Source of the DNA: an uncultured bacterium | Lineage (GTDB): Bacteria; Lernaellota; Lernaellaia; Lernaellales; Lernaellaceae | Length of the DNA stretch: 64,000 nt | Direction of reading: 5' to 3' | NCBI GenBank assembly: GCA_964534375.1 | Contig: CAZHPN010000006.1 | Location: 2,787 to 66,786 of the forward strand | Part shown: positions 22,438 to 63,008 of the stretch, piece by piece | Layout of the letters: each line of letters begins with the position of its first letter | Position numbering within the stretch: position 1 is the first letter of the stretch | The notes under the pieces: model-generated | The model's database searches: none | Told to the model about the DNA's origin: nothing | Seen by the model: the letters and a program-made list of their open reading frames with translations, nothing else | Translations under genes and position numbers: made by a program

Positions 22438-25683
<3,246 letters not shown>

Positions 25684-46483: not shown

Positions 46484-47443
46484 TCAACCGCCGCAACCGC
46501 CGCCGCGGGAATTGCCGTTGCGGTGTGCGGCCGGCGCCGCATCGTCATCGGCCGCGTCGTCGTTGTCGTCGTTGTCGTCGTCATTATCGTCATTATCGTC
46601 ATTATCGTCGTCGTCGTCGTTATCATCATCGTTGTCGTCGTCATTGTCGTCATCGTCGTCGTCGTCATTGTCGTCATCATCGTCGTCCAACGTATCGATC
46701 CCTTCCAGCCGGAAGGCGACCGCCGTTTCGGAAATGCCATAAACCGTGGAAATGTCGGCCCATTGGGCCGGAATCGCCGGCGACGCGCCGCCGCCCGGGT
46801 TCGCCACCATGCCATGATCGTAGTGCGAGGTCTCGGACACCCAAATGCCGACGACGCCGTCCGCCAGAGTCGTAACCGGATAGCAGGAAAGCCAATAATG
46901 ACCTGGCGAGAAGACGGGGGGCGAGACTGGCATTGCCCAGAAATCCGCCTCGTAGACGCTATCGGACAACGTGACGCGCGGATCGGTCGGGGTCCACGAT
47001 TCCGACCACAACGCCGGCGCCTCGTCGTAGATCGGCATGCCGCTCGGTTTCCCGCCCTCGTCGGGAAAGACAAAACAAGTGAGGGCCGAGGCGCTTTGAA
47101 GCCCCTGCCAACCGGCGCCGGGTTCGCCGCACCATTCGATCTGCTGCACGGTCCAGACATGGCCGGCGGGCACGACGAAGTCGTCCGCCGCGAACGTGTC
47201 CAGGGCGCTGTGGGCGGCGTCGAAAACCTGCCCGGCGTACGGTTTGTAATTGATCTGGCTGCCATCTTGCTCGATCAGGCTGGGGAAATACGGCGGCGCG
47301 GCCGGACTCGAGGCCGCCGAAGCGCGCGTCAACAAACCAACGCCTGCCCACCCGCCCGCGACTGCCACTATCGCGGCAATCGCGAGCGCCGCGAATCGTT
47401 CCTTCCGATCGGACACTTTTGCCGCTCCTTCCGCTGAAGCCAC
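46484..47443 (-). CDS. Secreted hypothetical protein with a C-terminal poly-Asp/Asn tract and a terminal ...GGGCGG
   Basis: Signal-peptide-like N-terminus (AALAIAAIVAVAGGWAGVGLLTRASAAS). A beta-rich domain of unknown family. The last 60 aa are (D/N)n followed by AAPAAHRNGNSRGGGCGG-stop. Confidence 0.5.
   Translation of the reverse strand: MASAEGAAKVSDRKERFAALAIAAIVAVAGGWAGVGLLTRASAASSPAAPPYFPSLIEQDGSQINYKPYAGQVFDAAHSALDTFAADDFVVPAGHVWTVQQIEWCGEPGAGWQGLQSASALTCFVFPDEGGKPSGMPIYDEAPALWSESWTPTDPRVTLSDSVYEADFWAMPVSPPVFSPGHYWLSCYPVTTLADGVVGIWVSETSHYDHGMVANPGGGASPAIPAQWADISTVYGISETAVAFRLEGIDTLDDDDDDNDDDDDDDNDDDNDDDNDDDDDNDDNDDNDDDNDDNDDAADDDAAPAAHRNGNSRGGGCGG
46541..46688. repeat. Imperfect (GAC/GAT/AAC)n trinucleotide tract encoding poly-Asp/Asn
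   Basis: About 150 bp of gtcgtc/gttgtc/attatc units on the plus strand, inside the 46484..47443 gene. Confidence 0.9.
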
Positions 47444-47567
47444 AATCCTTCGGGCCGCCCCTCTCGCCCAGCGGCCGCCCCATGGCGAACGTAATCACGG
47501 CGCGCCGCGCACGCTATCGGCCGGCCCCTGAGCCGGCGCGCTGGCGGCGAAGCGATCGGCGATGCGG

Positions 47568-49049
47568 CTACGTCGAGCCGGCGAGCGCGGGGCAGCCCCC
47601 GAACCGATAGATGCGGTAGCGGCCCACGCGCGCGGTCTCGCGGAAGCGCTCCGGGTGGCGGGCGATTAACCGGGTCAAAGCCTGGGCGTGGTCGTCGTCC
47701 TCGCCGGACCATACGCCGCGCCCGTCGATGGCGAATTTGACGCTGTCGCGACAAAAGAGTTCCAATTCCGATTCCTTGCCGGCCACCGCAAACGACAACG
47801 ACCGGCGGCGGCTGAACAAGGCCAGCGCGCGCGCGCGGTAGAACACGAGCGTGTCGCGCGGGGCCGCGTTGGCGCTCGCCCACGCGAACAATTGCTGGGT
47901 GTCGGGCGTGTCGATGCCGTCGCGCACCGGGCCGTAGTTCGCCGTGGCGAAAAAGACGCCGTCGCTGACGATGGCCGCGACCGCCAGCAGGGCGACGGCG
48001 CGGGCCGGCGTCAGCGCCTTGAGCCGCACGGCCATCTCGTTGAGCCCCAGCAGCAAGTAAAACAAGTAGAGCGGCAGCAACGGCAGCAGCAGCCGCAGCC
48101 CTTGGAAGGAGGGCCAAAGCAAGACGATCGCCAGATAGCCGGCGAAGAAGGTCTCGAGAACCGACCGCTTGCGCCAGAGGCGGGCGGCGAAGCCGATCGC
48201 CGCCGCCAGCATCGTCGCGATGCTGAGCGCCTGCCCGATCCGATGCGGGAACCCGGCAAAAAGCACTTCTTTAATGAAGGGCGGATAATTGCGCAGGTTC
48301 TCGAAAATGCACTGCGGATAGTGGTGCAGCTGGTCGCCGTAGCCCGGGCCGCCGCTGAGCAGCGCCGATTCGGCGGCGTACAAACCGTACGCGACGACCG
48401 TCGCCGCCACGGCGAATAGCGAAATCCGGCGCAGGCGTAGGACGTCGGCCGCCAACAGGCTCAGCGGCAGGACGACGCCGATCGTCCGCGTCGCCACGGC
48501 GGCGAACATCAACAGACCGGCGGCGGCGCCGTAAAGCAGATCGCGCCGCCGCGATCCAACCGCGGCCTGGCCCGCGACCACCGCCGCCAAGGCAAGCCCC
48601 GTCCACAACAAGAATGGAATGTCGGACCGAATCGGATTCCCTTCGTCGAACCACACCGGGCTGAAGCCGAGCAGCGCGAGCCACGTCAGCCGCTGCCAGA
48701 GCGGCAACTCGTCCCGCGACAAGCGAAAAAACGCGGCCAAGGCGCCAATCAGCAGCAGATTGACGAAGATTTGCATCGCGCGAAAATTCAAGCCGAAAAG
48801 TGCGATCACCGGGGCGAGCAGCGCCGGGAATCCGGGCGGATACGCCGACGGCCCCATCTCCGGAAAACCCGGATTGTAAACGTAACCGGTGTCCGTGGTG
48901 GGCCGATGTTCGGCGAGCGCCCGGGCCTGCGCAATGTACTGCGCAAAGTCGTCGTCCCACGTCAAACCCGGCCGCAAACACAGCAAACGGAACGCAAAAG
49001 TAGCGCCAAGCGCGGCGAGAAAAATCGTCCGGCGATTCCGCGAAAGCAA
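47568..49049 (-). CDS. Polytopic membrane glycosyltransferase-like protein (GT-C fold, ArnT/PMT/DUF2142-like)
   Basis: 493 aa. About 11 TM helices, with a cytoplasm-exposed DxD-like segment near the N-terminus (TWDDDFAQY). No closer assignment is possible by eye. Confidence 0.45.
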   Translation of the reverse strand: MLSRNRRTIFLAALGATFAFRLLCLRPGLTWDDDFAQYIAQARALAEHRPTTDTGYVYNPGFPEMGPSAYPPGFPALLAPVIALFGLNFRAMQIFVNLLLIGALAAFFRLSRDELPLWQRLTWLALLGFSPVWFDEGNPIRSDIPFLLWTGLALAAVVAGQAAVGSRRRDLLYGAAAGLLMFAAVATRTIGVVLPLSLLAADVLRLRRISLFAVAATVVAYGLYAAESALLSGGPGYGDQLHHYPQCIFENLRNYPPFIKEVLFAGFPHRIGQALSIATMLAAAIGFAARLWRKRSVLETFFAGYLAIVLLWPSFQGLRLLLPLLPLYLFYLLLGLNEMAVRLKALTPARAVALLAVAAIVSDGVFFATANYGPVRDGIDTPDTQQLFAWASANAAPRDTLVFYRARALALFSRRRSLSFAVAGKESELELFCRDSVKFAIDGRGVWSGEDDDHAQALTRLIARHPERFRETARVGRYRIYRFGGCPALAGST

Positions 49050-49295
49050 ACTTCCCTCCGGGTTGCAAGATCGAATACATAATAATCAGACGACGCCCGA
49101 GGGAAAGCGCCAAATGCCAAAATTTCCGCCGCTGGCCGCCGGAAAAAAAGACGAAAGCCAGTCCGTCGCCGCATGGTCGCGCACGGCAAAGCCTTCCTTG
49201 ACTTTTGACCGGCGGCAACCTTATGATAACATCGGTTGGACGGTGGATGCACGGTCGTTCGCGGCGGGCGGCGTAGAAAGAGAAAGGAGTTTGAG

Positions 49296-50579
<1,284 letters not shown>

Positions 50580-57550: not shown

Positions 57551-58066
57551 TTGAGTCACCGCTGGCCGATCGCCGCCCTTGTCGCGCTGCTGCTGTCTGC
57601 GCCGCTGGTTGCGTACGCCGGCTGCAAATGGGATCTGCCGTCGGAAGTTTTCGAATACTTCCACGAAACGTCCGCCAAGGCCGATTGCAACAACTACGAA
57701 TACAAATTCGCCGATCTCAAGGGCGAAAAACCGTATGCCATCATTGTGTCCCAGTACGAACGCTCGTGCGACAACCGGTACTGCGACACCGAAATTTTCG
57801 AAAAACGCGGCTCGACCTGGGTCCATATCGCGACGGTCCCCGGCCGCGTCAAAGTTGTCGAGACGAAAACGAACGGCTACCACGACATCCTGACCCTGCT
57901 GCTAGGCCGGCTTTACCTCTATGTCTGGGATGGAACTACGTATCTCGACATGATCGGCCTCGCCGCGGCCAGCGAACAAATGCTGCTGCTGCAGGGCCCG
58001 AACGCTGCGACGCCTCAGCCGGTCCAGCCGGAACAATCGCCCACACCTAGACCGAACAAGAAATAG
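57551..58066 (+). CDS. Small lipoprotein (hypothetical)
   Basis: TTG start with GAGG SD. Signal plus lipobox PLVAYAGC. A Cys-rich mature part (CKWD...CNNYEY...CDNRYCDTE). Follows a structured leader of about 120 nt. Confidence 0.45.
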   Translation: MSHRWPIAALVALLLSAPLVAYAGCKWDLPSEVFEYFHETSAKADCNNYEYKFADLKGEKPYAIIVSQYERSCDNRYCDTEIFEKRGSTWVHIATVPGRVKVVETKTNGYHDILTLLLGRLYLYVWDGTTYLDMIGLAAASEQMLLLQGPNAATPQPVQPEQSPTPRPNKK

Positions 58067-58089
58067 CCGCCCCGTCGCCCGCGCCGCCG

Positions 58090-59580
58090 TCAGCCCCCGC
58101 AACCGTGGTGGGCCGGCTTGCGGCCTCCGCTCGCATGCGGGGTCAAATCGTCATCGGCGCCGGCGGCGTCGCTATCGTCGTCATTGGCGTTGTTGTCGTC
58201 GTCATCGGGGACGTTGCCCGGGCCGCCGTAATAGAAATTAACGAGCCAGGCGGGATCGCCGGAGTTGTCGTTGATTGCGCCAATGTTCCAGAGGGTGGGG
58301 ATCGTGGCGTCGCCGACCAGCCCGGTATCGTCATTCCAGTTCAGATTTGCGTCGCGATACTTGATCTGGCTCACGAACGCCGCGTACTGATAGCCCGCGT
58401 TTGGAAAACGTCCGCTGCCCATCTGCGTGCTGGTGTGGATCCCGCCGGTCTGATCGTCCACCAGTTCGCCGCCGAATTGCGGGCTGGAGGCTCCGTCGGC
58501 GAGTCCGACCGGGCTGAACAAGCTGTTCGGATAATAGCCGACCGCCTTCCCGCCGACGTACAGCCACCAGTCGCCGGTTCCCGCATCGCGCACCATGCCC
58601 AACGTGACGGCGTATTGCGTTCCGCCGAACGAACTGTAATTGGGCAAGGGGCCGCCGATGACGACGCTGCTGTCCTGCTGGACAAAAATGCCGCCGTCGA
58701 GATTGTAATACCCGGTGTTGTAACCATCTTGCGTCGAAAAAATGAAAAGGTTCGTGTTGTCGTTGCCGTAAATAAGATAACAGTGCTGCAATCCGGTTTC
58801 GGCGCTTTGCAGGTTGCTGCCGGCGCCGTTGACGGCCCACAATTGCACCAGGGTAAACTCGTTGTGCTCCTCCACGTACTGATGCCACAAATTGAAGGTC
58901 GCCTGCAGTCCCGTGTGCACGGTGTTGTAATCCGCGGCGACCGTGTATTGGTGCGGCGGACCGCTCGACTCCGGCGCCAGATCGTCAGGGCGCTTCTTGA
59001 ATATGTCTTGCAACGTCCGGAAACGATAGTAGGTCTCCACCGGACGGATCAACTTCGGAAATGAGCCCGCCGGGCACTCCCGCACGGCGCCGTCTTCATC
59101 AAGCGAAGAATCCAAGCCCGAGTCGCGCACCGGAATCGGCCCGTTGCCGCCGCCGATTGCCGTGTCGGGGGCGGCTTCTGGCGGCGGCGGTAGGACGTTC
59201 GGATCCCCGCCGGCAACGACCAACGCGCGCTGGCTGTTGACGGCGACGCAAACAATCTGCTCGCCATCGCGCAATTTGAATCTGTGCACGGCCTCGCCGT
59301 CGGCGACGAACGCGCGGCGCCAAGCGTTGATTTTGATGAATTCCTCGACTGACTGTACGGCAAAATCGGGCATCGTTGCGCGGGCGGCCTCGTAACGTTG
59401 ACGCCACTCGTCGCGGTCCGCCGTGGTCAAGGCGGCGGCGACATCGCCGGCGTAAAGGCCCTGCGCCCAGGCGGCGCTCGCCGCGGCGACGATGAAGATC
59501 GCGATGGCGCCCATGGCGCCGTTTCGCAACTGACGGCCGAACTTCGCCACGATGCCTCCGAACCACCGGAAAATAGTCAT
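58090..59580 (-). CDS. Neprosin / DUF239-family (glutamic peptidase G3-like) secreted protein with a C-terminal poly-Asp/Asn tract ending ...HHGCGG
   Basis: Signal peptide (MGAIAIFIVAAASAAWA). Neprosin-domain conservation (QYTVAADYNTVHTGLQATFNLW, LVQLWAVNGAGSNLQSAETGLQHCYLIYGNDNTNLFIFSTQDGYNTG, WWLYVGGKAVGYYP). C-terminus PDDDDNNANDDDSDAAGADDDLTPHASGGRKPAHHGCGG-stop. Only 4 nt after the stop of the Cys-rich repeat gene. Confidence 0.7.
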   Translation of the reverse strand: MTIFRWFGGIVAKFGRQLRNGAMGAIAIFIVAAASAAWAQGLYAGDVAAALTTADRDEWRQRYEAARATMPDFAVQSVEEFIKINAWRRAFVADGEAVHRFKLRDGEQIVCVAVNSQRALVVAGGDPNVLPPPPEAAPDTAIGGGNGPIPVRDSGLDSSLDEDGAVRECPAGSFPKLIRPVETYYRFRTLQDIFKKRPDDLAPESSGPPHQYTVAADYNTVHTGLQATFNLWHQYVEEHNEFTLVQLWAVNGAGSNLQSAETGLQHCYLIYGNDNTNLFIFSTQDGYNTGYYNLDGGIFVQQDSSVVIGGPLPNYSSFGGTQYAVTLGMVRDAGTGDWWLYVGGKAVGYYPNSLFSPVGLADGASSPQFGGELVDDQTGGIHTSTQMGSGRFPNAGYQYAAFVSQIKYRDANLNWNDDTGLVGDATIPTLWNIGAINDNSGDPAWLVNFYYGGPGNVPDDDDNNANDDDSDAAGADDDLTPHASGGRKPAHHGCGG

Positions 59581-59591
59581 CGGCGTCCGGC

Positions 59592-61871
59592 CTAGCAACC
59601 GCAGCCCGTCCTGCCGTCGCTGCCACTGACGGAGCGCGGGTGGGGCGGCGAGACGTCGTCATCGGCCTGCGACGTGTCGTCATCGTCGTTGTCATCGTCA
59701 TCGTCGGTCGTGTCGTTGTCGTCATCGTCATCGTCGTCGGTCGTGTCGTTGTCGTCATCGTCATCGTCATCGTCGTCGTCGGTCGTGTCGTTGTCGTTGT
59801 CGTTGTCGTTGTCGTCATCGTCATCGTCGTTGTCGTTGTCGTTGTCGTCGTCGTTGTCGTTGTCGTCGTCGTTGTCATCGTCGTCGTCGTTGTCATCGTC
59901 ATTGTCGTTGTTGTCGTTGTCGTCGTCGTTATCGTCGTCGTCAACGCCGGGCACGCATTGGCCGCCTTGGCAGTGGTCGCCCGAGACGCAGGCGCTGCAT
60001 TCGCCCCCGCCCGAGCCGCAGTTGTCATCGGCGTTGCCGCCCCAACATTGATTGCTGGCGCAGCAGCCGTTCGGGCAGGCCTGCGGATTGCAAACGCAGG
60101 CGCCGCTCAGGCACTCGGTCCCCGCGGCGCAAGTCACGCATGCCGCCCCGTTGGCGCCGCACGCGGCGACCGTGTCGCCTGCGACACACTGCGTGCCGCT
60201 GCAGCAGCCGGTTTGGCAGTCGGTGGAATCGCAATACCCAACACACTCCCCGCCGACGCAATGATTGCCCGCGCTGCAGGCGGTGCATGCGCCGCCGGCC
60301 GTGCCGCACGCGCTGTCGGCGTCGCCGGTGGCGCATTGATTGGTTTGGCAGCAGCCGCTCGGGCAGGCTTGCGGATCGCAAGTGCACTGGTTGTTGACGC
60401 ATTCGGTTCCGGTGGCGCATGGCGCGCACGCCGCTCCCCCTGCGCCGCACGCGTCGTTCGCGGTTCCCCCGAGGCAGGTCGCGCCGCCGCAGCAGCCGTT
60501 CGAGCAGTCGGTCGAATCGCAATACGGCGTGCACTGATTCGCGGTGCAATGATTGCCGGCGACGCACGCGACGCACACGACGCCGCCCGTGCCGCACGCG
60601 CCGTCGACGTCGCCGGCCTGGCACTGGTTGTTGGCGCAGCAGCCGGCCGTGCACGAACCGGCATCGCAAACGCAAGCGCCGTTGACGCACTCCGTTCCCG
60701 CAGCGCACGTCGCGCAGGCTGCGCCGTCGACGCCGCACGCGCCGTTGTCGTTGCCCCCGAGGCATTGCGCACCGCTGCAGCAGCCGGTCTGGCAATCGGT
60801 GGAATCGCAATACGCGACGCATTGTCCATTCGTGCATTGCGTGCCCGCCGTGCAAGCGACGCACGACTCGCCGGAACCGCCGCACGCCGCTTCGGAGGCG
60901 CCGTCTTGGCAGGTGTCCGAGCCGTCGCAGCAGCCCGACGGACAGGTGAGCGGATCGCAGGCCGGCAGGCACGCGCCGGCTGCGCATTGCTGATATTGGT
61001 CGCACGCGACGCACGCCGCGCCGCCGGCGCCGCAGTAAGCGCTCGTGTTGCCGGTCATGCAGGACGTGCCGTTGCAGCAGCCGGAGGCGCAATCCTGGGC
61101 GTTGCAGTACGCGGCGCATTGGCCTCCCTGACAGTGCGTGCCGGCGCGGCAGGCGATGCAGGCTGCGCCCGACGCGCCGCAAGCGCCGTCGGCCGTTCCC
61201 GTCAAACATTCCGTGCCGCTGCAGCAGCCGGTTTGGCAATCGGTGGCGTCGCAATAGGCCACGCAGGCTTGGTTCAGGCACTTGTAGCCCGTCCCGCAAA
61301 CGGCGCAGGCCGCCCCGCCCGTCCCGCACGCGTTGTTTGCGGTTCCCGCCTCGCACGCCGTGCCGCTGCAGCAGCCGGTCGCACAATCCTGGGAACTGCA
61401 GTACGGCGCGCATTGCTGGTTGACGCAAATCTGTCCGTTCGCGGCGCAATTCTGGCAGGTCTGGCCGCCGGCGCCGCACTGCGAATCGCCCGTTCCCGGC
61501 GAGCATTCGTTGCCGACCGTGCAGCAGCCAGTGGTGCAATAATCGATGCATTCTTCGCCGCCGCTGCACTCCCCGCCGACGCAGGTTTCGCCGTAGTCGA
61601 GGCAGTTCTCGCAGTAGCCGCCGCCCATGCCGCAGGCGGTGTCGGAATTCCCGGGCATGCACGTGCTGCCGCTGCAACAGCCGTAGCACGTGCCGCAGCT
61701 TCTCGTCCCGTCCGCGTCGTAGTCGAGCGCGCGGTCTGGCGCGGAGATTGCCGGCGCGGACGAGCGGCCGGCGCTTCGCTTCGCGGGCTCGCTAAAACAG
61801 GAAATCCATAGCGCGGGGAGCAACACGACAACGATCATCAGCCAGGATGCGGCGGGCGGACTTTTCTTCAC
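59592..61871 (-). CDS. Secreted Cys-rich tandem-repeat protein (about 15 repeats of roughly 38 aa) with a poly-Asp/Asn C-terminal tract of about 100 aa ending ...TGCGC
   Basis: Signal peptide MKKSPPAASWLMIVVVLLPALWIS. Repeat unit similar to C-x2-YCx3-DC-x2-GCC-x-G-x2-C-x2-G-x4-ACG-x2-G-x2-C-x2-C-x2-G-x2-C-x2-G-x-C. Then VDDDDNDDDNDNNDND...DDDVSPPHPRSVSGSDGRTGCGC-stop (TAG). Confidence 0.7.
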   Translation of the reverse strand: MKKSPPAASWLMIVVVLLPALWISCFSEPAKRSAGRSSAPAISAPDRALDYDADGTRSCGTCYGCCSGSTCMPGNSDTACGMGGGYCENCLDYGETCVGGECSGGEECIDYCTTGCCTVGNECSPGTGDSQCGAGGQTCQNCAANGQICVNQQCAPYCSSQDCATGCCSGTACEAGTANNACGTGGAACAVCGTGYKCLNQACVAYCDATDCQTGCCSGTECLTGTADGACGASGAACIACRAGTHCQGGQCAAYCNAQDCASGCCNGTSCMTGNTSAYCGAGGAACVACDQYQQCAAGACLPACDPLTCPSGCCDGSDTCQDGASEAACGGSGESCVACTAGTQCTNGQCVAYCDSTDCQTGCCSGAQCLGGNDNGACGVDGAACATCAAGTECVNGACVCDAGSCTAGCCANNQCQAGDVDGACGTGGVVCVACVAGNHCTANQCTPYCDSTDCSNGCCGGATCLGGTANDACGAGGAACAPCATGTECVNNQCTCDPQACPSGCCQTNQCATGDADSACGTAGGACTACSAGNHCVGGECVGYCDSTDCQTGCCSGTQCVAGDTVAACGANGAACVTCAAGTECLSGACVCNPQACPNGCCASNQCWGGNADDNCGSGGGECSACVSGDHCQGGQCVPGVDDDDNDDDNDNNDNDDDNDDDDDNDDDNDNDDDNDNDNDDDDDDNDNDNDNDTTDDDDDDDDDDNDTTDDDDDDDNDTTDDDDDNDDDDTSQADDDVSPPHPRSVSGSDGRTGCGC
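59650..59945. repeat. Long imperfect (GAC/AAC/GAT)n trinucleotide tract (about 300 bp) encoding poly-Asp/Asn
   Basis: Plus strand gtcgtcatcgtc/gttgtcgtt... units throughout. Similar tracts at 49403-49722, 50806-50940 and 58141-58210. Confidence 0.9.
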
Positions 61872-61902
61872 GTCGTTCGACCTCTAGGTTCGAAGATAAT
61901 CG

Positions 61903-62210
61903 TCATGTTGCCGGCGGCTTCCCCACGCTCTTCAGGGCGCGATTCAGATAGGCGAGTTTTTGCGCGTCGTCGGCGGCGTCAAATTGGCCTTTGCAAACGG
62001 GGCACATAAAACCGATGCGCCAACCTCTGAAATCGGAAAAAAACGTCGGCGCTTCCGGCTTGCCGGCGACGGGTTTGCCGGAGACCGGGCAAATGGAATT
62101 GGCGACCAACGCCGGCTTTGACTCGTCGCCGGCGGCGATCGACGACGTAATCGCCGACGCGCCAAAGAGAATAGCGCCGGCGACCAGCAGGCAGACAAAC
62201 CGCGTGAACA
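61903..62210 (-). CDS. Small secreted YHS/TRASH-like metal-binding domain protein
   Basis: Real start MFTRFVCLLVAGAILFGASA (signal). ICPVSGKPV...FMCPVCKGQFD resembles YHS-domain CxxC motifs. The track ORF is over-extended upstream. Confidence 0.45.
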
Positions 62211-62219
62211 TTGCATCCC

Positions 62220-63008
62220 CTACCAGAACATGATGGCGAAGCCGCGCTCGGCCAAGCGAAAACCGACGCTGGCGTGGCCGATCCAATTGTTCGCCGCCGC
62301 GGCGATCAACGCAAGCCAGCAGCCGGAAAATACAATCAAGCATGAGAGAATTCGCTCGCGCCACGGCGCGGGACGCGCCGGCGCGAACGTCGGCGCCATG
62401 CCGAACGGGTAGATGACCGCGCTGGTCATCCAGACCTGCAACACCATCAACAAGGCGCCGTGCATCGGGCTTTGCGTGCTGGCGGCGAGCGAAAGCGTCC
62501 AAAGTGTGATCATGCAAGGCATCAGCCCCATCGCCATGCCGAGGAAAAACTTTTGGCGGTAGCCCGGCGTATTTTGCAAACGGTTGGCCAGCCCGCCTAA
62601 CATGCGCCCCCACCAGGGATTCCCGGCGCCCTCGGCCAGTCGCGCGAGGCCCGACAGACGCAACGCGCCATAGGTGATGAGGAACGCGGCGACCAGCAAG
62701 CCGGTGATTTTGACGATCTGCGCGAGGACCGACTGCAGCGCCGCGCCGCCCAGGCCGGCCAATGCGCCCAGGACGGCGTACGTCAGCGAGCGGCCAAGCT
62801 GGTAGCACGTCACAAGCAGCGCCGAACCGAACAGGCGTTTTCGTCGCGGCGTGTTCGAGTTCAAACGTTCGCGAAGGCCGCCGCCGATGTCCAGGCCGAC
62901 CACAATCGGGCCGCACATGCCGGAGCAATGCAAACTGATCCAGACGACGCCGACGCCGAGAAGCTGGGCGTATTGCGGATGCTCGCCGAGGGTGAAGACG
63001 TCATTCAT
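62220..63008 (-). CDS. DsbD_2 / UreH-like (HCxxMCGP) polytopic membrane protein, putative metal transporter
   Basis: 262 aa. Six to seven TM helices with the family-typical HCSGMCGPIV motif in TM1 and a second Cys/Met-rich helix (GLMPCMITLW). Confidence 0.55.
   Translation of the reverse strand: MNDVFTLGEHPQYAQLLGVGVVWISLHCSGMCGPIVVGLDIGGGLRERLNSNTPRRKRLFGSALLVTCYQLGRSLTYAVLGALAGLGGAALQSVLAQIVKITGLLVAAFLITYGALRLSGLARLAEGAGNPWWGRMLGGLANRLQNTPGYRQKFFLGMAMGLMPCMITLWTLSLAASTQSPMHGALLMVLQVWMTSAVIYPFGMAPTFAPARPAPWRERILSCLIVFSGCWLALIAAAANNWIGHASVGFRLAERGFAIMFW

What the first reader, a model, noticed from the sequence alone, without database searches (positions are those of the whole stretch)
59592..61871. 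759-aa secreted protein built from about 15 tandem 38-aa Cys-rich repeats (around 120 Cys, GCC cores)
The repeats are regular (…YC-x3-DC-x2-GCC-x-G-x2-C-…-ACG-x2-G-x2-C-x2-C-x2-G-x2-C…) and resemble furin-like, GCC2_GCC3 or VSP-type disulfide-rich modules more than any common bacterial fold. The protein is co-transcribed with a neprosin-like peptidase (stop and start 4 nt apart) and ends in the acidic tract plus GCGC tag. Possible roles are a metal-binding or protease-resistant surface scaffold, or an inhibitor or chaperone for the adjacent peptidase.
Basis: seen in the sequence. Interest (0 to 1): 0.6.

Follow-up and report, generated by a model that had tools for sequence, protein, structure and literature searches.

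The report
Cysteine-rich surface stalk protein, GCGC tail
This gene encodes an exported protein made of 12 copies of an uncatalogued, disulfide-rich 46-residue module, probably a rigid stalk on the cell surface, followed by a long acidic tether and a C-terminal GCGC that looks like the myxobacterial MYXO-CTERM sorting motif without its membrane helix.

Summary
The ORF (59592-61871, minus strand, 759 aa, 123 Cys) is real. Its motif, acidic tract, GCGC end and neprosin neighbour are confirmed. The repeat count is wrong: there are 12 modules of 46 aa (10 Cys each, period 47-51 aa), not 15 x 38 aa.

No Pfam, NCBIfam or PDB sequence model matches the module. A TIGR02232 positive control did score. 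The module defines an unannotated family of about 1,700 clusters at 50% identity, mostly Myxococcota lipoproteins. AlphaFold2 folds it confidently (pLDDT 95.6) into small beta-hairpins with no significant PDB neighbour.

In relatives the repeats almost always lie between the membrane anchor and a variable head domain. In one relative a single repeat is fused between a neprosin peptidase domain and the same acidic tether and GCGC end. This supports a stalk or spacer role rather than a peptidase inhibitor.

The tag (D/N tract, then GCGC or GCGG, then stop) recurs on three window proteins and on at least seven further distinct proteins elsewhere. Within the family it never co-occurs with a lipobox. 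It equals the MYXO-CTERM signature without the helix and Arg cluster.

Verdict: new variant of a known kind, moderately interesting. The function is inferred, not shown.

The parts
59592..61871 (-). Whole ORF: 759-aa exported Cys-rich repeat protein (GTG start; TAG stop at 59592-59594)
   Evidence: The same ORF is called on independent metagenome contigs.
61881..61885 (-). Shine-Dalgarno-like AGAGG, 9 nt upstream of the GTG start
   Evidence: Read from the sequence.
61797..61871 (-). Signal peptide, aa 1-25 (MKKSPPAASWLMIVVVLLPALWIS|C). It ends in a lipobox-like LWIS-C, so this is a probable lipoprotein signal. Trp at position -3 is atypical.
   Evidence: It matches a PROSITE-style lipobox pattern. 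181 of 249 untagged relatives have a lipobox.
61698..61796 (-). N-terminal linker, aa 26-58, predicted disordered
   Evidence: pLDDT below 50 for aa 1-52.
61566..61697 (-). Repeat 1 (aa 59-102), divergent, 10 Cys
   Evidence: Lower pLDDT of 61-65.
61410..61550 (-). Repeat 2 (aa 108-154)
61263..61400 (-). Repeat 3 (aa 158-203)
61116..61253 (-). Repeat 4 (aa 207-252)
60969..61106 (-). Repeat 5 (aa 256-301)
60819..60959 (-). Repeat 6 (aa 305-351)
60672..60809 (-). Repeat 7 (aa 355-400), type A
   Evidence: In the two-repeat AF2 model, pLDDT 95.6.
60531..60668 (-). Repeat 8 (aa 402-447), type B
60384..60521 (-). Repeat 9 (aa 451-496), type A
60243..60380 (-). Repeat 10 (aa 498-543), type B
60096..60233 (-). 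Repeat 11 (aa 547-592), type A
59955..60092 (-). Repeat 12 (aa 594-639), type B
   Evidence: Repeats 7-12 form 2.8 copies of a 288-nt two-repeat super-unit.
59667..59945 (-). Poly-Asp/Asn acidic tract (aa 643-735), predicted disordered tether
   Evidence: TRF period 6, 44.5 copies. pLDDT below 50.
59595..59666 (-). C-terminal tail (aa 736-759: ...DDDVSPPHPRSVSGSDGRTGCGC). The GCGC tag is at 59595-59606, directly before the stop.
   Evidence: The same tail type occurs on other proteins.
58090..59598 (-). Co-oriented downstream gene: neprosin-family (glutamic peptidase G3) protein. It has a type-I signal peptide, both catalytic Glu conserved, its own D/N tract and a ...HHGCGG end. The alternative ATG start is at 59580.
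   Evidence: PF03080 E 2e-46. PDB neprosin 7zu8/9qr8 E 3e-39 with E in SAETGLQ and GGELVD. Tail.
61903..62211 (-). Upstream co-oriented 102-aa secreted protein with CPVSGKP...FMCPVCKGQF. It looks YHS/TRASH-like by eye only. The gap to the Cys-rich gene is 31 nt.
   Evidence: No Pfam or NCBIfam hit.
62220..63008 (-). First gene of the co-oriented block: DsbD_2-family membrane protein with an HCSGMCGP motif
   Evidence: PF13386 E 3e-26. Weak ArsG-like NCBIfam hit.
46484..47494 (-). Third protein in the window with a D/N tract plus a ...GGGCGG end (same tag class). It is not part of the operon.
   Evidence: No family hit.

Best explanation
The gene encodes a Sec-exported protein of the cell envelope or surface. 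Its body is a chain of 12 rigid, disulfide-stapled beta-hairpin modules. Each module is 46 aa with 10 invariant Cys, presumably forming 5 disulfides.

The module belongs to an uncatalogued family. In Myxococcota lipoproteins that family serves as the stalk between the lipid anchor and a variable head domain. Here the stalk has no head. It is followed by a disordered poly-Asp/Asn tether of about 95 aa and a C-terminal GCGC.

I infer that the tether plus GCGC is an anchoring or sorting device. It reproduces the GCGC signature and preceding disordered region of MYXO-CTERM, whose Cys is proposed to be lipidated. It lacks the transmembrane helix and Arg cluster that myxosortase removes. The protein may also carry an N-terminal lipid at Cys25.

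The gene is probably co-transcribed with a DsbD_2 membrane protein, a small Cys-containing secreted protein, and a neprosin-type acid glutamic peptidase that bears the same tether and tag. The stalk protein and the peptidase would therefore be delivered to the same surface compartment.

Shown: the anatomy, the family, the fold confidence, the architecture statistics and the recurrence of the tag. Inferred: the disulfides, surface location, anchoring by the tag and co-transcription.
For: - Anatomy: 12 modules with 10 Cys in register, alternating A and B types.
- Family: 350 word-index hits, mostly Myxococcota MAGs. The exhaustive profile search gives 1,720 clusters at E<=1e-3 and 837 at E<=1e-10. 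There are 3-12 copies per protein.
- Fold: the two-repeat AF2 model has pLDDT 95.6 and is all small hairpins. In the full-length model most repeats score 82-94, the ends are disordered and pTM is 0.33, which suggests an elongated, non-globular chain.
- Disulfides: Cys residues are lost in pairs, C1+C4 25 times and C9+C10 19 times.
- Stalk position: among lipobox members with an extra domain of at least 150 aa, 66 have that domain at the C-terminal side, so the repeats are next to the N-terminal anchor, against 5 with the domain N-terminal. All 6 tag-bearing sequences with an extra domain (3 distinct proteins) carry it N-terminally, so the repeats are next to the C-terminal tether.
- Heads: C2 in 11 of 87 relatives, plus clostripain, a PD40/DPPIV-type propeller, phosphoesterase and ZU5. 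P0141 is lipobox + 10 repeats + Peptidase_C11.
- Fusion: L093 encodes a neprosin domain + one complete repeat (HMM E 1e-14) + D-rich tether + GGCGC in a single ORF.
- Tag: it occurs on 3 window ORFs and on at least 7 further distinct proteins. It always accompanies a D/N tract (12 of 12, against 1 of 249 untagged members). It never accompanies a lipobox (0 of 12, against 181 of 249; p = 4e-7). The 12 sequences represent about 7 independent clusters.
- Literature: MYXO-CTERM has a 'generic GCGC motif' after a disordered region. The Cys is needed for MrtX cleavage and lipidation is proposed (PMC11980579, 10.1101/2023.06.07.544157). TraA's Cys-rich repeats were proposed to act as a rigid stalk (PMC3325183).
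Against: - There is no experimental evidence for any step.
- The window protein has no head domain, so a 'stalk' with nothing on it needs a further explanation. It could be a structural spacer or the repeats themselves could bind something.
- It matches both a permissive lipobox pattern and the tag, whereas these are mutually exclusive in the relatives.
- The tag lacks the helix that in MYXO-CTERM holds the Cys at the membrane for modification. How a free C-terminal GCGC would be recognised is unknown.
- No CPBP or myxosortase-like gene was seen in the window by a crude motif scan.
- Two of the three window tags end in GCGG, with a single Cys.
- The organism appears to carry anaerobic respiration genes (Mo-oxidoreductase in the window; NrfD and cytochrome c3 on the flanking metagenome contig), so extracytoplasmic disulfide formation is assumed rather than shown.
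Confidence: 0.5

Rival explanations
1. Thiol or metal sink. The 123 Cys stay reduced in an anoxic, acidic peat habitat and bind soft metals (Cu, Zn, Cd, Hg, Fe) or metal sulfides, as an extracellular metallothionein-like buffer. The poly-Asp tract would add hard-cation binding.
For: - Cys makes up 16% of residues and includes CxxC pairs.
- The upstream genes are a DsbD_2-family membrane protein with a weak ArsG-like hit and a small CPV...CPVC protein that looks YHS-like by eye.
- The organism carries anaerobic respiration genes (Mo-oxidoreductase in the window; NrfD and cytochrome c3 on the flanking metagenome contig).
Against: - AF2 gives a very confident fixed beta-hairpin fold without metal (pLDDT 95.6).
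- Invariant Gly residues sit at turn positions, and no His, Asp or Glu is conserved inside the module.
- Cys residues are lost in pairs, as expected for disulfide partners.
- Relatives use the module as a spacer next to the anchor in enzymes and C2 proteins.
- The DsbD_2 and 102-aa neighbours are absent from the seven distinct homologue loci inspected.
Confidence: 0.12
2. Partner of the adjacent peptidase: an inhibitor, zymogen chaperone or docking scaffold that binds the neprosin-like enzyme.
For: - The two genes are tightly linked, with a 7-nt overlap or an 11-nt gap, and both products carry the same tag.
- Repeat and neprosin domains are fused in L093, and a half-repeat-like segment is fused in L094.
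- A clostripain fusion exists (P0141).
Against: - In the fusions the repeat lies between the catalytic domain and the tether, which is the stalk position. It is not placed like a prodomain or inhibitor.
- Seven distinct Cys-repeat-family loci have no peptidase next to the Cys-repeat gene.
- Most family members carry non-protease heads or none.
- No inhibitor of G3 glutamic peptidases is known to me for comparison (own knowledge).
Confidence: 0.1
3. The repeats are themselves the functional part: a multivalent adhesin or binding array for polysaccharide, mineral or cell-surface ligands, like TNFR or EGF-type cysteine-rich ligand-binding modules.
For: - Headless, repeat-only architectures are common in the family. 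143 of 260 proteins have short ends on both sides of the repeat block.
- The nearest structural look-alikes, although not significant, are ligand-binding cysteine-rich domains of the TNFR family and IGF1R, and the mastigoneme protein.
- The neighbourhood includes GH2 and GH92 glycosidases.
Against: - No surface patch is conserved beyond Cys and Gly. The other positions are highly variable, which is typical of spacers.
- The Foldseek matches are not significant.
Confidence: 0.18

Closest known systems
TraA of Myxococcus xanthus (PA14-like head + TIGR04201 Cys-rich repeats + MYXO-CTERM)
   Same: Both are Sec-exported proteins with tandem Cys-rich repeats. In TraA these were proposed to act as a rigid stalk. 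In both, the repeats are followed by a disordered region and a Cys-containing C-terminal tag whose generic signature is GCGC (PMC3325183, PMC11980579).
   Different: - The repeat is a different family: 10 invariant Cys in 46 aa, against 3 invariant Cys in TIGR04201, and no NCBIfam hit.
- The window protein has no head domain.
- The tag stops at GCGC, with no TM helix or Arg cluster.
- A possible N-terminal lipobox is present as well.
MYXO-CTERM sorting signal (TIGR03901) and myxosortase MrtX
   Same: Both have a GCGC signature with a Cys essential for processing, preceded by an intrinsically disordered region, on many unrelated secreted proteins of one lineage.
   Different: The tripartite design is not present. 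The hydrophobic helix and Arg-rich tail are missing, no HMM hit was obtained, and no myxosortase could be looked for beyond 64 kb. Some copies end in GCGG.
Myxococcus cysteine-rich acidic repeat, TIGR02232 (Pfam DUF4215 by recollection)
   Same: It is also a tandem, Cys-rich, secreted repeat that is enriched in Myxococcota.
   Different: It has a different length (38 aa), Cys pattern and sequence. The window protein does not hit the model, while a synthetic consensus control does (E 1.7e-47).
Eukaryotic disulfide-ladder modules (TNFR cysteine-rich domains, furin-like region of IGF1R and insulin receptor, Chlamydomonas mastigoneme Mst1)
   Same: They are small beta-hairpin units stapled by several disulfides and strung into elongated rods. 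They are the top Foldseek hits.
   Different: E-values of 0.05 to 5 and TM scores up to 0.38 are not significant. The Cys spacing differs, there is no sequence-model match, and there is no evidence of common descent.
Neprosin (Nepenthes prolyl endopeptidase, MEROPS G3, PDB 7ZU8); applies to the neighbouring gene
   Same: The downstream protein aligns over the pro-domain end and the catalytic domain at E 3e-39. Both catalytic Glu residues are conserved (PMC9343461 was listed but not read).
   Different: The window protein is bacterial and has an added D/N tether and a GCGG end. Activity and specificity have not been tested.

Membership tests
TIGR02232 myxo_disulf_rpt | Match to the 38-aa repeat HMM above its cut-off (20.8 bits) | tested here: not met
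   There is no hit for the whole protein at E<=1, none for single or double repeats at E<=10, and none in 87 relatives. A synthetic consensus control scored 158.9 bits.
TIGR04201 (TraA-type Myxococcales Cys-rich repeat) | Match to the repeat HMM. The repeat has 3 invariant and 2 semi-conserved Cys. | tested here: not met
   No NCBIfam hit. The module has 10 invariant Cys. No positive control was run for this model.
GCC2_GCC3 (PF07699), furin-like and growth-factor-receptor Cys-rich Pfam models | Pfam HMM match | tested here: not met
   There are no Pfam families at E<=1 for the protein, none at E<=10 for single repeats, and no repeat model hit in 87 relatives.
TNFR or furin-like disulfide-ladder fold | Significant structural superposition on solved members | tested here: inconclusive
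MYXO-CTERM (TIGR03901) | Signature motif with an invariant Cys (generic GCGC) after a disordered region | tested here: met
   The protein ends ...GRTGCGC after a D/N tract of about 95 aa that is predicted disordered. The motif definition comes from the papers read.
MYXO-CTERM (TIGR03901) | Hydrophobic transmembrane helix following the motif | tested here: not met
   A stop codon follows GCGC directly. Read-through frames show no helix, and there are only 11-38 nt to the next gene in several loci.
MYXO-CTERM (TIGR03901) | Arg-rich cytoplasmic cluster at the extreme C-terminus | tested here: not met
   It is absent from the ORF.
MYXO-CTERM (TIGR03901) | Cognate myxosortase (CPBP family) in the genome | not testable with these tools
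   Only 64 kb is available. A crude motif and TM scan found no CPBP-like ORF.
Bacterial lipoprotein (SPII signal) | Positively charged n-region, hydrophobic h-region, lipobox [LVI][ASTVI][GAS]C | tested here: inconclusive
   MKK..., a hydrophobic core and LWIS-C fit the permissive PROSITE-style pattern, but Trp at -3 is atypical. No SignalP or LipoP was available.
Unannotated 10-Cys 46-aa repeat family (defined here) | C-x4-5-C-x2-3-GCC-x4-C-x8-9-CG-x2-G-x2-C-x2-C-x5-6-C-x4-C in tandem | tested here: met
   All 12 repeats fit. A profile of 73 two-repeat units retrieves 1,720 clusters. The consensus comes from 786 repeats.
Neprosin / peptidase family G3 (neighbouring gene) | PF03080 match and a conserved catalytic Glu dyad | tested here: met
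   PF03080 scores 158 bits against a cut-off of 22. The alignment to 9qr8/7zu8 keeps the E of IEAGWQ and of GGEI, spaced 109 residues apart. Equating these two Glu with the catalytic dyad E188/E297 rests on my recollection of the neprosin literature.

The most novel reading that the evidence does not exclude
The acidic tract plus terminal GCGC or GCGG is a new class of bacterial C-terminal anchoring signal. It would be a 'pre-trimmed' MYXO-CTERM whose terminal Cys is lipidated or otherwise covalently attached, without a membrane helix and without myxosortase cleavage.

The window protein, with a lipobox at one end and this tag at the other, would then be a doubly tethered rod of 12 modules. 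Such a rod could set a fixed distance in the envelope or build a surface layer on which the same-tagged acid peptidase is displayed.
Probability: 0.2. Interest if true: 0.75.

Novelty: new variant of a known kind. Interest (0 to 1): 0.5.

Why it matters
Three points would matter if they hold.

1. A sizeable protein module is missing from Pfam and NCBIfam. It covers about 1,700 clusters at 50% identity and is the body of hundreds of Myxococcota lipoproteins. It now has a confident predicted fold and a clear positional logic (anchor, stalk, head), so it could be turned into a family model at once.

2. The GCGC-stop tail links a poorly represented peat-bog lineage to the MYXO-CTERM system. It offers a natural experiment on what the GCGC motif does without its helix. 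The enzyme that modifies the MYXO-CTERM Cys is still unknown (PMC11980579).

3. A surface-tethered bacterial neprosin-type acid peptidase in an acidic habitat is a plausible extracellular protein-scavenging device. It is also a possible source of acid-stable prolyl endopeptidases.

Tried and rejected
- **Family scans.** Pfam and NCBIfam scans of the whole protein, of single and double repeats, and of 87 relatives found nothing for the repeat.
- **PDB sequence search.** It returned only poly-Asp noise.
- **Genome contigs with the neprosin protein.** No relatives were found.
- **Genome contigs with CarB.** The best identity was only 57-64% across many phyla, so the organism could not be placed.
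- **Cluster and contig look-ups.** No organism names came back, and the other copies of the locus are 100% identical. Repeat-number variation among true orthologues could therefore not be assessed.
- **Promoter and terminator scan of the operon.** There were no promoter-like sites, and terminator-like sites were at background level.
- **Read-through or recoding after GCGC.** This was rejected. The stops are 9 TGA and 1 TAG, and no helix plus Arg cluster appears in the read-through frames.
- **CPBP or myxosortase in the window.** None was found by motif scan.
- **Long ORFs on other frames and the opposite strand** (59640-61811 +, 60025-61689 -). These are high-GC artefacts. Only the Cys-rich frame has homologues.
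- **Rfam and tRNA scans of the window.** Both were empty.
Full report
**1. The observation**

- The ORF at 59592-61871 on the minus strand exists and encodes 759 aa from a GTG start. AGAGG lies 9 nt upstream of the start.
- It contains 123 Cys, which is 16% of residues.
- The repeat arithmetic is wrong. There are 12 GCC cores spaced 47-51 residues apart.
- Delimiting units from the first to the tenth Cys gives 12 modules of 44-47 aa (46 in most). Each has exactly 10 Cys. Linkers are 1-5 residues.
- The 123 Cys are fully accounted for: 120 in the repeats, Cys25 in the signal peptide and two in the terminal GCGC.
- Repeats 7, 9 and 11 (59-74% identical to each other) alternate with repeats 8, 10 and 12 (52-61%). 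This explains the 288-nt period with 2.8 copies and score 764 found by TRF.
- After the repeats comes a poly-Asp/Asn tract of about 95 aa, then ...SPPHPRSVSGSDGRTGCGC and a TAG stop.
- The next gene on the same strand (58090-59598) is a neprosin-family protein (PF03080, E 2e-46). Its TTG start overlaps the stop by 7 nt. The ATG that JGI calls as the start lies 11 nt downstream, so the spacing is not 4 nt.

**2. Not a catalogued domain**

- Pfam and NCBIfam give no hit for the whole protein at E<=1 and none for isolated single or double repeats at E<=10.
- Scanning 87 diverse relatives one by one, no Pfam or NCBIfam model ever covers the repeat.
- A synthetic TIGR02232-like consensus scored E 1.7e-47 in the same NCBIfam library. 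The negative result is therefore not a filter artefact.
- PDB sequences give only poly-Asp noise.

**3. A real, sizeable family**

- The word-index search returned 350 proteins, with a best E of 4e-68 at 36-43% identity. All are annotated 'hypothetical'. Where they are named, they come from Myxococcota, Polyangiaceae, Archangium or Myxococcaceae MAGs.
- A profile of 73 two-repeat units, searched against 1.84 billion cluster representatives, found 1,720 proteins at E<=1e-3, 837 at E<=1e-10 and 136 at E<=1e-30.
- From 786 repeats the consensus is CgPsnCp.GCCd.nG.C..G....aCG.gGa.C..C..g..C..G.C. It has ten near-invariant Cys plus the Gly residues of GCC, CG and GG. Almost everything else varies.
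- Copy number per protein is 3-12 with a mode of 8, so the window protein is at the top of the range.
- When Cys residues are missing they tend to go in pairs: C1 with C4 25 times and C9 with C10 19 times. This is what disulfide partners would do.

**4. Structure**

- AlphaFold2 on repeats 7-8 with the 73-sequence alignment gave mean pLDDT 95.6 and pTM 0.72. The model consists only of short beta-hairpins.
- In the full-length model most repeats score 82-94. Repeat 1 scores 61-65 and repeat 8 scores 55-64.
- Residues 1-52 and 648-759 score below 50, and pTM is 0.33. This describes a string of well-defined modules with disordered ends and no global globule.
- Foldseek against PDB found nothing significant. 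The best E was 5.3 for two repeats and 0.05 for the whole chain.
- The top-ranked but non-significant look-alikes are the Chlamydomonas mastigoneme protein, TNFR-family cysteine-rich domains and the Cys-rich region of IGF1R and the insulin receptor.

**5. What the module does in relatives**

- A lipoprotein-type signal (a lipobox such as AACG or GGCS) matches in 181 of the 249 family proteins that lack the C-terminal tag.
- Among lipobox proteins with an additional region of at least 150 aa, 66 have it at the C-terminal end, with the repeats directly after the lipid anchor. Only 5 have it between the anchor and the repeats.
- The additional regions include C2 (11 of 87), clostripain Peptidase_C11, a PD40/DPPIV-type propeller, phosphoesterase and ZU5.
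- P0141 is lipobox + 10 repeats + Peptidase_C11.

**6. The tag**

- Three ORFs in the window end in a D/N-rich tract followed about 10-20 residues later by GCGC or GCGG and a stop. They are the Cys-rich protein, the neprosin-like protein (...HHGCGG) and 46484-47494 (...GGGCGG).
- The same tail occurs on family members P0077, P0091, P0100, P0101/P0129, P0173, P0203 and P0209.
- It also occurs on unrelated neighbours in L090 and L094 and on two neprosin homologues.
- In ten cases checked at the DNA level the stop follows the last Cys or Gly directly (9 TGA, 1 TAG). No hydrophobic helix plus Arg cluster appears in read-through frames. The next gene often starts within 11-38 nt.
- Within the family the tag always comes with a D/N tract (12 of 12, against 1 of 249) and never with a lipobox (0 of 12, against 181 of 249; Fisher p = 4e-7). 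The 12 sequences represent about 7 independent clusters.
- All 6 tag-bearing sequences that have an extra domain (3 distinct proteins) carry it N-terminally, so the repeats abut the tether.
- The literature supplies the link. [quoted passage not shown] In MYXO-CTERM it is followed by a TM helix and an Arg cluster. The Cys residues are required for cleavage by myxosortase MrtX, and lipidation of the Cys is proposed but unproven (PMC11980579; Haft 2023 preprint).
- The window tag is therefore the MYXO-CTERM signature without the part that myxosortase removes. It fails two of the three defining features of MYXO-CTERM, so I do not file it as a member. I infer an analogous anchoring role.
- The window protein is unusual in matching both the tag and a permissive lipobox pattern (LWIS-C, with Trp at -3). 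Dual tethering is possible but unproven.

**7. The neighbours**

- Four co-oriented genes have gaps of 8 nt and 31 nt, and then a 7-nt overlap or an 11-nt gap. They are DsbD_2 (PF13386, E 3e-26), a 102-aa secreted protein with CPVSGKP...FMCPVCKGQF (no family hit), the Cys-rich protein and the neprosin-like protein.
- The neprosin-like protein aligns to solved neprosin at E 3e-39. The two Glu residues that I take to be the catalytic dyad (E188/E297, by recollection of the neprosin literature) are conserved, in SAETGLQ and GGELVD, with a target spacing of 109 residues.
- Neprosin is reported to self-activate at gastric pH (abstract of PMC9343461, listed). At least part of the contigs appear to come from peatland metagenomes; this is my recognition of the JGI sample identifiers, not a tool result.
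- The pairing is not a general property of the family. Loci of seven other distinct family members (seen in L005/L006, L087, L088, L089, L090/L091 and L092) have no neprosin or DsbD_2 next to the Cys-repeat gene.
- A metagenome scan with the neprosin protein found two relatives. In L093 (46% identity) a single ORF encodes the neprosin domain, one complete Cys repeat (aa 481-527, HMM E 1e-14), a D-rich tether and GGCGC. L094 (44% identity) has a half-repeat-like segment and the same tail.
- That fusion ties the two window genes together functionally. It also places the repeat in the stalk position rather than where an inhibitor or prodomain would sit.

**8. Interpretation**

- The best-supported reading (confidence about 0.5) is an exported, disulfide-stapled modular rod of the cell surface or envelope.
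- It would be tethered through an acidic linker and a MYXO-CTERM-like GCGC end, and possibly also through an N-terminal lipid.
- It would be co-expressed with an acid glutamic peptidase that carries the same tether.
- The rivals are a thiol or metal sink (0.12), a peptidase partner or inhibitor (0.10), and an adhesin in which the repeats themselves bind ligands (0.18).
- None of these is excluded experimentally. The evidence for and against each is listed in the rival explanations.

**9. Provenance and limits**

- The same locus occurs at 100% identity in the three JGI metagenome contigs compared and on an ENA assembly contig carrying the identical protein. Repeat-number polymorphism among orthologues could not be tested.
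- CarB is at most 64% identical to any of the GTDB species representatives retrieved, and these are spread over many phyla. The lineage is unplaced.

**10. Novelty**

- Cys-rich tandem-repeat surface proteins with Cys-containing C-terminal tags are a known kind (TraA with MYXO-CTERM).
- This protein is a different, uncatalogued repeat family combined with a tail-less form of the tag, so I rate it a new variant of a known kind.
- Interest is moderate at 0.5. The tag is the part most likely to surprise a specialist.

Noticed in passing
window 46484-47494 (-) and 47568-49049 (-): A third protein carries the D/N tract and a ...GGGCGG end and has no family hit. Directly upstream on the same strand is a 493-aa protein with about 8 TM helices and no Pfam or NCBIfam hit. 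By eye it resembles GT-C/ArnT-type glycosyltransferases (YPPGFP motif).
   Followed up: partly
window 49236-50579 (+): An FGE-sulfatase-domain protein (PF03781, E 2e-33) has weak PvdO, GldK and EgtB-like NCBIfam hits. It also contains a 20-of-20 Asp/Asn stretch before the domain. The family includes Cys-modifying enzymes, so it may be worth checking against the Cys tag.
   Followed up: partly
L093:3-1790 and L094:7740-9836 (metagenome contigs Ga0315277_10072919 and Ga0181520_10005195): These neprosin homologues (46% and 44% identity) are fused to one full Cys repeat and to a half-repeat-like segment respectively. Both also have a D-rich tether and a GCGC end.
   Followed up: yes
L090:9929-13366 and L091 (same genes): Two adjacent tag-bearing genes (P0129 and a 480-aa protein) lie between a radical-SAM/SPASM + sulfatase cluster and a gas-vesicle gene cluster (GvpA, GvpL/F, GvpG).
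   Followed up: no
L005:3005-9103: Three consecutive lipoproteins, two of them with Lcl_C/DUF1566, carry the Asp-rich tract at the N-terminus, right after the lipobox Cys (SCGSSSSS...STDDD). In this lineage the acidic tether therefore accompanies either type of anchor.
   Followed up: partly
window 61903-62211 (-) and 62220-63008 (-): A small secreted protein with a CPVSGKP...FMCPVCKGQF motif (YHS/TRASH-like by eye, no model hit) is paired with a DsbD_2 membrane protein (HCSGMCGP motif, weak ArsG-like hit). It could be a thiol-redox or a metal-handling pair.
   Followed up: partly
window 59581-59591 and 58066-58089 (minus-strand read-through after the tags): In frame after the stops, the Cys-rich gene reads AGRR* and the neprosin gene reads RRRGRRGG.... 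This could be chance, or a remnant of an ancestral Arg cluster. The other eight tags show nothing similar.
   Followed up: no
window 22438-25683 (-): CarB is only 57-64% identical to the best GTDB species representatives, which are spread over Methylomirabilota, Syntrophia, Nitrospirota, Acidobacteriota and others. The organism appears poorly represented in reference genomes.
   Followed up: partly
window 1-64000: There are no tRNA genes and no Rfam family at gathering threshold in the entire 64 kb.
   Followed up: yes
L087 and L088 (Myxococcota homologue loci): In both loci a Ser/Thr protein kinase gene lies one to four genes upstream of the Cys-repeat gene, and an FHA-sigma54 activator is nearby. 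In L089 an FHA-GGDEF gene overlaps the 3' end of the Cys-repeat gene by 4 nt. This may be a regulatory association or just typical myxobacterial gene content.
   Followed up: no
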